From the IMG/VR virus record IMGVR_UViG_3300050343_000110: 64,000 nt of DNA. One strand, 5' to 3'. The notes beneath the pieces were generated by a model that did not search any database, was not told the origin of the DNA, and saw only the letters and a program-made list of their open reading frames with translations. The translations under genes and the position numbers were made by a program. Of the stretch, positions 45,842 through 49,750 are shown in pieces. The first letter of the stretch is position 1; the number at the start of each line of letters is the position of its first letter. Source of the DNA: a virus.

Positions 45842-46408
45842 ATTTATTTTGGTTAGATGAAGACCCCTTTCAAGTCTATTGAATACCATTGTGACAAACA
45901 TATTGTAAAGATGCCAACAGAGTACAAACAAATGCTCTGTACGGCACATCGTGTTTTGGACGGCACAGAGTATATTGATAGAACTAAAAATGGTGCAAGA
46001 ATCAAACGATGGAAACACCCAGACAGAAAGATGGAGAAAATCTTATTCAAGGCTTCTCATGTCAATCATCCTACTAACAAGTGGGTTCGTCTGTGTCGTG
46101 AGAACTATTCTATGATGTTTACTTACTACATATTATGTTGTAATGAGTACGAACATCGCTACAATAAAATACATGGTGCAAAAGATTATTGGGATATGTT
46201 GCGTGAGCCACCAAAGAATATGCCATCTAGTATTATGGGGCATACACCTGTACCACAGGCAATGAAACAGTTTCCTGAGTGTATGGTAAAGGATGATAGT
46301 GTTCAAGCATATCGTAACTTTTACAATGTTGCCAAGAAGCGTTTTGCTACTTGGAAAGAAAGAGAAAGGCCTTATTGGTATGACAGTACAAAATTACGAG
46401 TTGCCTGA
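45838..46408 (+). CDS. Pyrimidine-dimer DNA glycosylase (DenV-like family; frameshift near 45862)
   Basis: MNLFWLDEDP..HCDKHIVKM.E..QML.TAH, H.NHP..W, PQAM, AYR.FY. Confidence 0.75.
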
Positions 46409-48768: not shown

Positions 48769-49126
48769 TGGGAGTGCTTTGGCTGCGCCAGAGGACTATA
48801 ATACACCAGAACCAGAAACACCACCTCAAGTGTTTCGTTCAGACAAACCAGTAACTTGTACTACTGATTCATATGATGAAGTAAAGCAAAACTTTCTAGA
48901 ATCACATGGTGAAGTTGGTTTTATGAGATACATAAGTGATAGTAAAACTGCTATTGAAATAATTGGTAATGTAGACACAGGAACTATTACTATCTTAGAA
49001 TTTATACCATCAAATAAATATACTTGTTTTATTTCTGTTGGTAGAGGATTAGAGGTAAACAGTAATATTTTTGATAAGGCAAAACAAGGTATTGAAACTA
49101 ACTTACTTAAATCTATTGACTTGTAA
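48722..49126 (+). CDS. Exported hypothetical protein
   Basis: Signal peptide ending ALA; KPVTC...TC...G. Confidence 0.6.
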   Translation: MKSWKKALTLSALLFSGSALAAPEDYNTPEPETPPQVFRSDKPVTCTTDSYDEVKQNFLESHGEVGFMRYISDSKTAIEIIGNVDTGTITILEFIPSNKYTCFISVGRGLEVNSNIFDKAKQGIETNLLKSIDL

Positions 49127-49149
49127 ACACCACTATGGTATAAATATAG

Positions 49150-49508
49150 TACAGTTTGTTGATACAATCTGAAAGCTAGACAGGACTTGGGGGCAGTACC
49201 CAACGCCTCCACCATAATTACTTGAGGACAATATGTTTGATAGACTAACAGAGTTTTTTATAAAACTGTTTAAGATACAAGAAAAGACACCAGTAAGATA
49301 TCTATCTGGTGTTGGTAAATCAAGTAATTATGATGGGGGCGAACTAGGATCGACTGATGGTAATAGGAAAGAGTAGAGCTGTGGGATGGATGCCTAATAA
49401 TCCAAAAAAACTAAACGCAAACGATAACTTTGCACCTCAAGATTTTGCTCTAGCAGCATAATCGGATAGGGTTTCGGTAGGTTTCCTAGTAACAGAATAA
49501 CCTACCAC
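49150..49508 (+). ncRNA. ssrA: Two-piece (circularly permuted) tmRNA, alphaproteobacterial type
   Basis: Acceptor piece ends GGGGCAGTACCC..GCCTCCACCA (49214); the 5' end GGGGGCGAA..GGATCGAC lies downstream (49335); tag ANDNFAPQDFALAA* at 49417-49461; 3' hairpin. Confidence 0.92.
49233..49376 (+). CDS. 47-aa ORF starting in the tmRNA intervening segment
   Basis: GAGGA RBS then MFDRLTEFFIKLFKIQEKTPVRYLSG... Confidence 0.4.
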   Translation: MFDRLTEFFIKLFKIQEKTPVRYLSGVGKSSNYDGGELGSTDGNRKE

Positions 49509-49525
49509 TTAATTATGAAAGCAGG

Positions 49526-49750
49526 ATGATGAAAGAATTTATATTTGTAATTACAATGTGGGGAATCGATGGTTCTGGTACAGAGAATTATATAGGACAG
49601 ATTGCAATGCAACAGCCGTTCTCAGAAACACAGTGCGAAAGACTTATGGATGATGGTATGTGGAAATCTGATTACGAGAACGAACATTACTTTATGAAGG
49701 GCCATTGCTTCCCGGCAGAATGTTCTGGTAAAGAGCAATGTACAGAGTAA
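49526..49750 (+). CDS. Hypothetical protein
   Basis: ORF with AGGA RBS. Confidence 0.55.
   Translation: MMKEFIFVITMWGIDGSGTENYIGQIAMQQPFSETQCERLMDDGMWKSDYENEHYFMKGHCFPAECSGKEQCTE

What the first reader, a model, noticed from the sequence alone, without database searches (positions are those of the whole stretch)
49213..49376. Long tmRNA intervening segment closed by a 13-bp inverted repeat and containing its own ORF
Seen: the 120-nt spacer is bracketed by CATAATTACTTGA (49213-49225) and TCAAGTAATTATG (49320-49332), which extends the acceptor stem. Inside are a GAGGA RBS and a 47-codon ORF with an amphipathic start (MFDRLTEFFIKLFKI) whose stop lies within the mature coding piece. Inference: the ORF terminates only on the unprocessed precursor. 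After RNase P cleavage the excised spacer is a non-stop mRNA and thus a tmRNA substrate, which suggests a feedback sensor or a switch between translation and maturation.
Basis: partly seen in the sequence, partly recalled or inferred. Interest (0 to 1): 0.72.

Follow-up and report, generated by a model that had tools for sequence, protein, structure and literature searches.

The report
Small protein gene inside phage tmRNA spacer
The 120-base piece that is cut out when this marine phage's two-piece ribosome-rescue RNA (tmRNA) matures carries a real, conserved 47-codon gene. Related phages use the same stem-closed spacer as an exchangeable slot for other small genes, so a "throw-away" part of a stable RNA also serves as a messenger.

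Summary
The window holds a permuted two-piece ssrA at 49152-49506. Its 120-nt spacer (49215-49334) is closed by an exact 13-bp inverted repeat that prolongs the acceptor stem. A GAGGA Shine-Dalgarno site precedes an ATG at 49233, and the 47-codon ORF stops at 49374-49376, 42 nt inside the mature coding piece.

The closing helix is not special to this phage. 133 unique viral spacers share a 15-position helix with covarying pairs.

The ORF is very probably a real gene. It has 38 unique relatives, including an unannotated one in the cultured OM43 phage Melnitz. Start and SD are kept, no stop ever arises, and synonymous changes are in excess in this frame only (P = 3e-4, 2e-3 and 0.02 in three subfamilies).

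26 of 54 long viral spacers carry SD-led ORFs from unrelated families, against 1.4 expected. Spacers are swapped independently of the tmRNA body.

The "feedback sensor" idea is not supported. Short relatives stop inside the spacer, and the +42 TAG also exists in ORF-less relatives. Selection on read-through forms does imply translation before RNase P cleavage.

This scan has reported the same layout on other DNA (at least 63 genomes). I found no paper describing it.

The parts
49116..49146 (+). Promoter: TTGACT (49116-49121), 17-nt gap, TATAAA, which is part of TATAAATA (49139-49146, the T4-type late-promoter motif)
   Evidence: Positions. The same arrangement lies upstream of Melnitz ssrA. 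The tool's stricter consensus scan did not list it, so this is read from the sequence.
49152..49214 (+). Acceptor piece of the two-piece tmRNA: T-arm, acceptor-stem 3' strand 49204-49210, discriminator A 49211, CCA 49212-49214
   Evidence: Rfam RF04321 and RF01849 alignments
49215..49334 (+). Intervening segment (spacer), 120 nt, absent from mature tmRNA
   Evidence: Lies between CCA and the first G of the coding piece
49211..49225 (+). 5' arm of the 15-position closing helix (ACCA plus 11 spacer bases)
49320..49334 (+). 3' arm of the closing helix; read by the ORF as Ser-Ser-Asn-Tyr-Asp
49224..49228 (+). Shine-Dalgarno GAGGA at the distal edge of the closing helix, 4 nt before the ATG
   Evidence: An SD is kept at this place in all 38 family members (GAGGA, GGAGA, AGGAG, AGAG or GGGGA).
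49233..49376 (+). 47-codon ORF (family A, subfamily A1). Codons 1-34 are spacer-encoded; codons 35-47 and the stop are read from the mature coding piece.
   Evidence: Conservation and coding signature. Called by gene finders in 30 metagenome protein clusters, none with a functional name (two are 'hypothetical protein', one has a garbled entry).
49335..49506 (+). Coding piece of the tmRNA: acceptor-stem 5' strand 49335-49341 with G3.U (49337 opposite 49208), then the tag frame and the 3' hairpin 49476-49506
   Evidence: alignments; positions
49417..49461 (+). Tag reading frame: resume codon GCA, 14 codons ending ...ALAA, stop TAA 49459-49461
49526..49750 (+). 74-codon gene just downstream of ssrA. 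Its homologue sits inside the ssrA spacer of locus L026.
   Evidence: BLASTP 35% identity, E 1e-15; spacer layout of L026

Best explanation
The window comes from an uncultured marine T4-like myophage related to OM43 phage Melnitz. It carries a working-looking permuted ssrA gene.

The spacer between the acceptor piece and the coding piece is held shut by a family-typical 15-position helix. That helix prolongs the acceptor stem, so the tmRNA body folds the same way whatever the loop contains. The loop has therefore become a slot for small protein genes. Here it holds a member of family A, a peptide of about 26 core residues: a predicted N-terminal helix followed by a basic stretch and a K/R-Y-L-S/G-G motif.

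In this subfamily the internal stop is absent, so the frame runs on through the 3' arm and the first 42 nt of the mature coding piece to the first TAG there.

Inferred steps:
1. The peptide is translated from the primary transcript, most likely while that transcript is still being made. At that moment the 3' arm does not yet exist and the SD is free.
2. After termination the helix closes and partly covers the SD.
3. RNase P and the 3'-end enzymes then release the two tmRNA pieces and discard the spacer.

The peptide's function is unknown.

Shown here: the anatomy, the conservation, the coding signature, the many unrelated ORF families and the cassette-like exchange. Inferred: the timing of translation relative to processing.
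For: 1. tmRNA identity. Rfam scores are twice the gathering thresholds. G3.U, an encoded CCA and a tag ending ALAA are all present.

2. Phage identity. The gp59 homologue is 76% identical to Melnitz and the gene order matches.

3. The ORF is real.
- There are 38 unique family-A spacers, including Melnitz, where it is unannotated.
- The start is ATG, TTG in one member (L141) and apparently GTG in the database protein P0025, inferred from its sequence.
- Indels that are not multiples of 3 lie only between the SD and the ATG. The ATG-to-coding-piece distance is 102, 123 or 147 nt.
- Substitutions were placed on trees and compared with the same changes moved to other sites. Synonymous counts were 25 against 13.4 expected (P = 3e-4) in A1, 15 against 7.6 (P = 2e-3) in A2 and 14 against 8.4 (P = 0.02) in A0.
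- The two shifted frames show no significant excess (P = 0.09 to 0.97).
- Over the whole family, 8.7 stop-creating changes were expected and none was seen.

4. Slot model.
- 26 of 54 unique viral spacers of 90 nt or more have an SD, a start and an ORF covering at least 70% of the spacer. Shuffled cores give 1.4 +/- 1.1.
- These ORFs fall into 15 clusters by a crude shared-word criterion. That criterion splits family A over several clusters, so there are about a dozen unrelated families.
- Viral spacers have a median length of 95.5 nt, against 33 nt in 112 alphaproteobacterial genes.
- Window versus L070: spacer 99% identical, coding piece 73%, upstream DNA 62%.
- L106 has a tmRNA body 90-91% identical to the window but an ORF-less 54-nt spacer.
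- The same gene family lies inside the spacer in L026 and downstream of ssrA here.
- A family-A gene lies in a spacer in L337 and apparently stands free in L336.

5. Translation before cleavage. A1 and A2 are under purifying selection although their stop lies beyond the RNase P site.
Against: - There is no expression data.
- Selection is moderate (pN/pS about 0.35) and the sequences are short.
- Part of the SD is paired in the folded precursor, so translation could be weak.
- The free-standing copy (L336) is a 521-nt contig of about 1x coverage and could be chimeric.
- Family A is otherwise found only in ssrA spacers in a search of 1.84 billion representative proteins. This could instead mean a dedicated link with tmRNA rather than a neutral slot.
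- The structure model has low confidence (pLDDT 61).
- No family, fold or function was found.
Confidence: 0.72

Rival explanations
1. First reader's model, with ArfA-like logic. RNase P cleavage turns the spacer message into a non-stop mRNA. Its product is then tagged and destroyed by the tmRNA made from the same transcript, so the peptide accumulates only when processing or trans-translation lags. It would act as a sensor or switch.
For: The stop lies 42 nt beyond the RNase P site in the two largest subfamilies, and roughly half of the ORF clusters end beyond that site. [quoted passage not shown]
Against: Members of the same family with 26-29 and 52 codons stop inside the spacer. The +42 TAG pre-exists in ORF-less relatives and drifts between +33 and +42. 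Stop position follows the frame in which each ORF enters the fixed tmRNA sequence: -1, +13, or +15 and beyond. There is no similarity to ArfA or to any Pfam family.
Confidence: 0.1
2. The ORF is not translated. The spacer is conserved as RNA (processing signals, hairpins), and recent recombination makes it look constrained.
For: The spacer is strongly structured. Some pairs are almost identical in the spacer but not in the flanks. About half of the long spacers have no ORF and look like structured RNA.
Against: The synonymous excess occurs in one frame only, in three separate subfamilies. No stop ever appears, against 8.7 expected. SD and start are kept across 51-99% spacer identity. In the Y-L-S-G motif the Tyr, Leu, Ser and Gly codons differ between subfamilies only at third positions. 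SD-led ORFs are enriched 26 to 1.4 over shuffles.
Confidence: 0.08
3. The peptide is a dedicated partner of the phage tmRNA, for example a modulator of SmpB, ribosome rescue or tmRNA maturation. On this view it is not an arbitrary passenger.
For: Apart from one doubtful contig, family A was found only in ssrA spacers among 1.84 billion representative proteins. It is kept in phages whose tmRNA bodies have diverged.
Against: The same slot holds about a dozen unrelated families, including membrane peptides, cysteine-rich proteins and an ordinary neighbouring gene. The closest tmRNA body, L106, has no ORF.
Confidence: 0.1

Closest known systems
Two-piece (permuted) ssrA of OM43 phage Melnitz and related pelagimyophages (PMC9004378)
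   Same: Same gene order (PhoH, PD-(D/E)XK nuclease, ssrA, gp33, gp59, ThyX). Same promoter type, an alphaproteobacterial-type tmRNA, and a homologous ORF in the spacer.
   Different: The paper and the GenBank record describe the tmRNA and a glutamine riboswitch but annotate no gene in the spacer. The window has a 120-nt rather than 142-nt spacer and a 47- rather than 54-codon ORF. It has no riboswitch hit at Rfam's gathering threshold.
Bacterial permuted tmRNA genes of Alphaproteobacteria (Rfam RF01849 and RF04321; Keiler et al. 2000; database paper PMC11915505)
   Same: Order of acceptor piece, intervening sequence and coding piece. Maturation by tRNA-processing enzymes (PMC11915505). Many have a closing hairpin.
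   Different: Bacterial spacers are short (median 33 nt, maximum 95 in 112 genes). The database paper mentions only a tRNA gene and a repetitive element inside intervening sequences, and no ORF.
E. coli arfA, a gene expressed from a non-stop mRNA and repressed by trans-translation (PMC10107115)
   Same: RNA processing inside the ORF would remove the stop codon, which would make the product a tmRNA substrate.
   Different: No sequence similarity. The stop-less state is not conserved in the family. Here the processing is tmRNA maturation itself.
Homing-endonuclease genes in group I introns of tmRNA genes (PMC11915505)
   Same: A protein gene sits in a part of the tmRNA gene that is removed from the mature RNA.
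   Different: That is a self-splicing intron in the T-loop carrying a mobility enzyme. Here the host is the permutation spacer, removed by tRNA-processing enzymes, and the passengers are small proteins of unknown function.
Dual-function RNAs such as SgrS/SgrT and RNAIII/hld (own knowledge, not checked here)
   Same: One transcript is both a functional RNA and a messenger for a small protein.
   Different: There the same mature molecule does both jobs. Here the coding part is excised, and in this subfamily the ORF overlaps the tRNA-like domain.

Membership tests
Permuted two-piece tmRNA (RF04321 / RF01849) | Covariance-model score above the curated threshold over the full model | tested here: met
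   101.8 bits (threshold 47) and 103.5 bits (threshold 50), full length
Permuted two-piece tmRNA (RF04321 / RF01849) | 7-bp acceptor stem with G3.U70, discriminator A and an encoded CCA at the end of the upstream piece | tested here: met
   49335-49341 pairs with 49204-49210; G49337 lies opposite U49208; ACCA is 49211-49214
Permuted two-piece tmRNA (RF04321 / RF01849) | Tag reading frame with an alanine resume codon and a hydrophobic ...ALAA end | tested here: met
   49417-49461, 14 codons ending ALAA, then TAA
Permuted two-piece tmRNA (RF04321 / RF01849) | Mature RNA exists as two base-paired pieces, and the spacer is removed | not testable with these tools
Protein-coding gene (spacer ORF, family A) | Start codon and ribosome-binding site conserved in relatives | tested here: met
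   All 38 unique spacers; TTG start in one member (L141)
Protein-coding gene (spacer ORF, family A) | Purifying selection in this frame only; frame and openness kept | tested here: met
Protein-coding gene (spacer ORF, family A) | Direct evidence of translation | not testable with these tools
   No RNA or ribosome data could be reached
ArfA-type gene controlled through a non-stop mRNA | Stop-less message after processing, conserved across the family | tested here: not met
   The short subfamily and the 52-codon form stop inside the spacer
ArfA-type gene controlled through a non-stop mRNA | Sequence membership in ArfA (Pfam) | tested here: not met
   No Pfam hit at E up to 10 for six family members

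The most novel reading that the evidence does not exclude
In the read-through subfamilies a finished peptide can only arise if a ribosome clears the first 42 nt of the coding piece before RNase P cuts. The phage would then have built a race between translation and tRNA-type processing into its own tmRNA gene. Every late ribosome would yield a non-stop complex that the newly made tmRNA must resolve. The peptide level would report host processing and rescue capacity during infection, which is ArfA-like logic inside ssrA itself.
Probability: 0.08. Interest if true: 0.85.

Novelty: new variant of a known kind. Interest (0 to 1): 0.62.

Why it matters
Stable-RNA precursors are treated as non-coding, and their excised parts as waste. 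Here, in abundant ocean phages, the excised part of a tmRNA precursor repeatedly carries selected small genes.

Three consequences follow:
- One transcript must serve first as a messenger and then as a substrate for tRNA-type processing.
- Annotation pipelines that mask RNA genes will miss these proteins.
- A stem-closed loop in a highly expressed RNA gene can act as a recombination-friendly cassette site.

Family A is also present in Melnitz, which is cultured with its OM43 host, so the idea can be tested at the bench.

Tried and rejected
- ARAGORN did not call the tmRNA; Rfam did.
- No whole genome is held for the window.
- Pfam, PHROGs and the ESM Atlas gave nothing for the peptide or for the neighbouring small genes.
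- AlphaFold2 on the family alignment gave one helix at low confidence. I made no fold search on such a model.
- A profile search of 1.84 billion representatives found only the family itself plus low-complexity hits in long proteins.
- An ArfA relationship was considered and rejected.
- I asked whether ORF-less long spacers hold a known RNA family. Rfam found only the tmRNA itself.
- The classic papers on two-piece tmRNA (PMC16621, PMC516066) are not held. Five literature searches and two full-text reads turned up no description of a coding spacer.
- The simple promoter scan did not list the TTGACT / TATAAA pair because it requires a T at the last position of the second hexamer.

Full report
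**What is there.**
Rfam places a full-length permuted tmRNA at 49152-49506 on the + strand (RF04321 101.8 bits, RF01849 103.5 bits). ARAGORN reports only a tRNA-Arg elsewhere in the window.

Reading the sequence gives this layout:
- acceptor-stem 3' strand 49204-49210, discriminator A 49211, CCA 49212-49214
- spacer 49215-49334 (120 nt)
- coding piece from G49335, with G3.U (49337 opposite 49208)
- tag frame 49417-49461 ending ALAA

Upstream lies TTGACT, a 17-nt gap, then TATAAATA (49116-49146). This could serve both as a sigma-70 promoter and as a T4-type late promoter. Melnitz has the same arrangement.

The gp59 homologue is 76% identical to that of OM43 phage Melnitz and the gene order matches. 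The window is therefore an uncultured Melnitz-like T4-type myophage. No whole genome is held for it.

**The observation.**
The 13-bp inverted repeat, the GAGGA, the ATG at 49233 and the TAG at 49374-49376 are exactly as reported. The repeat stacks on the acceptor stem through an A-U pair and a C.A mismatch. Together they give a helix of about 22 positions, and it dominates the fold of both the spacer and the whole precursor (z = -7.5 and -5.3).

**The helix is generic.**
A scan of IMG/VR for the T-arm plus CCA motif, and a second scan for the helix start, gave 188 loci with 140 unique spacers.
- In the 133 unique spacers of at least 28 nt, positions 1-15 beyond the acceptor stem are paired in 71-99% of sequences.
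- Position 2 is the exception: a C.A mismatch opposite the first C of CCA occurs in 120 of 133.
- Positions 6-15 show two to six pair types each, and pairing collapses at position 16.

The window's 13-bp repeat is thus the standard closing helix at its standard length. About half of 112 alphaproteobacterial genes have such an extension too, but their spacers are short: median 33 nt against 95.5 nt in the viral set.

**The ORF is conserved and behaves as coding.**
Melnitz has a 142-nt spacer holding a homologous 54-codon ORF with the same SD, ATG and stop position. The record does not annotate it.

In all I found 38 unique family-A spacers, in these subfamilies:
- a short form of 26-29 codons that stops at a TAA inside the 3' arm
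- the window's form (47 codons)
- a 46-codon variant
- the Melnitz form (54 or 62 codons)
- a 52-codon form that stops inside the spacer

All share an N-terminal helix-like segment and a K/R-Y-L-S/G-G motif. In that motif the Tyr, Leu, Ser and Gly codons differ between subfamilies only at third positions.

Length changes that are not multiples of three lie only between the SD and the ATG. One member starts with TTG (L141). One database protein appears to start with GTG, inferred from its protein sequence (P0025).

I placed substitutions on trees and compared them with the same changes moved to other sites of the same base:

| Subfamily | Synonymous observed | Expected | P |
|---|---|---|---|
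| A1 (window) | 25 | 13.4 | 3e-4 |
| A2 (Melnitz) | 15 | 7.6 | 2e-3 |
| A0 (short) | 14 | 8.4 | 0.02 |

The two shifted frames give P = 0.09 to 0.97. Over the family, 8.7 stop-creating changes were expected and none occurred. Pairwise pN/pS is about 0.35 in frame. Gene finders have called the ORF in 30 metagenome protein clusters, none with a functional name.

**The wider pattern.**
Of 54 unique viral spacers of 90 nt or more from the unbiased scan, 26 carry an SD, a start and an ORF filling at least 70% of the spacer. Spacers with shuffled cores give 1.4 +/- 1.1. In the pooled set, 64 ORF-bearing spacers fall into 15 clusters by a crude shared-word criterion. That criterion splits family A over several clusters, so there are about a dozen unrelated families. 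They include several predicted membrane peptides and cysteine-rich proteins. The SD usually sits at the distal edge of the 5' arm, and the ATG about 18-20 nt after CCA.

Three results argue that the spacer is an exchangeable slot:
- Mosaicism. Window versus L070 is 99% identical in the spacer but 73% in the coding piece and 62% upstream. L106 has a tmRNA body 90-91% identical to the window but an ORF-less 54-nt spacer.
- The 75-codon gene inside the L026 spacer is homologous to the window gene 49526-49750, which here lies just downstream of ssrA (35% identity, E 1e-15).
- A family-A gene sits in a spacer in L337. An almost identical copy seems to stand free in L336, but that is a 521-nt low-coverage contig.

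**The stop codon.**
Where an ORF ends depends on the frame in which it meets the fixed tmRNA sequence.
- One frame hits the TGA of the conserved TGAT just before the first G.
- One frame hits the TAG 13 nt inside the coding piece.
- The third frame runs to +15 or beyond.

ORFs with their own stop end 7-15 nt before the first G. Within family A, the short form and the window form differ by 5 nt just before the 3' arm. This puts the arm's TAA out of frame in the window form. The +42 TAG also exists in ORF-less relatives such as L030, and it shifts to +33 or +36 in some members.

The stop inside the mature piece therefore looks found, not made. Even so, the read-through forms are under purifying selection. 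This implies that their product is made from RNA that still includes the coding piece, that is, before RNase P cuts. The simplest way is translation of the nascent transcript, before the 3' arm exists. This step is inference.

**The peptide.**
No Pfam, PHROG or Atlas relative was found. A profile search of 1.84 billion representatives found only the family itself plus low-complexity hits in long proteins. AlphaFold2 gives a single helix over residues 3-27 at pLDDT 61. Function is unknown.

**Literature and earlier notes.**
The Melnitz paper describes the tmRNA and a riboswitch but no spacer gene. The 2025 tmRNA database paper mentions a tRNA gene and a repeat in intervening sequences, and no ORF. 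I found no paper on coding spacers.

This scan's own notes report the same layout in at least 63 other genomes. I reached my reading before seeing them, and I tested the shared claims on my own loci. They are AI notes, not independent evidence.

**Verdict.**
The ORF is very probably a real gene, a new member of a recurring and apparently unpublished layout. The sensor interpretation is unsupported but not excluded.

Noticed in passing
window 49526-49750; L026 4698-4925 (- strand): The small gene just downstream of ssrA in the window has a homologue (35% identity, E 1e-15) inside the 266-nt ssrA spacer of another phage. Neither matches any Pfam or PHROG family above threshold.
   Followed up: partly
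133 unique viral spacers (L002-L215); window 49212 / 49333: A C.A mismatch opposite the first C of CCA is kept in 120 of 133 spacers, and the closing helix ends sharply after position 15. With the acceptor stem this gives about 22 stacked positions. That may be a ruler for a processing enzyme, with RNase III as one candidate.
   Followed up: no
L039 and L045 spacers (97 and 98 nt); other spacers with 41-60% G+C: About half of the long spacers have no ORF, are richer in G+C and look structured. L039 and L045 share conserved blocks (AGGGTGGCAAGTA, GAGGGCTGGAATTCC). Rfam finds no known family inside 16 such loci, which included L045 but not L039.
   Followed up: partly
L053, L078, L099, L046, L059, L068 spacers (159-183 nt): These spacers seem to hold two mini-ORFs. 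A short one lies right after the SD in the 5' arm, and an overlapping 38-44-codon membrane peptide ends at the TGA just before the coding piece.
   Followed up: no
MZ577097 (Melnitz) 46096-46260 = L001 3100-3264: The cultured phage Melnitz has an unannotated 54-codon family-A ORF inside its annotated SsrA feature. Locus tags 87 and 88 are skipped in the record.
   Followed up: partly
window 49116-49146: The ssrA promoter combines TTGACT, a 17-nt gap and TATAAA with the T4 late motif TATAAATA. This suggests transcription both early and late. The same arrangement occurs in Melnitz.
   Followed up: no
window 49462-49525: Melnitz has a glutamine riboswitch after its ssrA. The window has no Rfam hit there at the gathering threshold, so that element is not shared.
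   Followed up: partly
P0025, P0026, P0028, P0041 (metagenome proteins): Gene finders sometimes extend the spacer ORF upstream through the acceptor piece. This gives 51-72-residue artefacts whose N-termini are translated T-arm and CCA.
   Followed up: yes
L080 3125-3431: In one related phage, a tRNA gene and a manA RNA motif lie directly next to the permuted ssrA.
   Followed up: no
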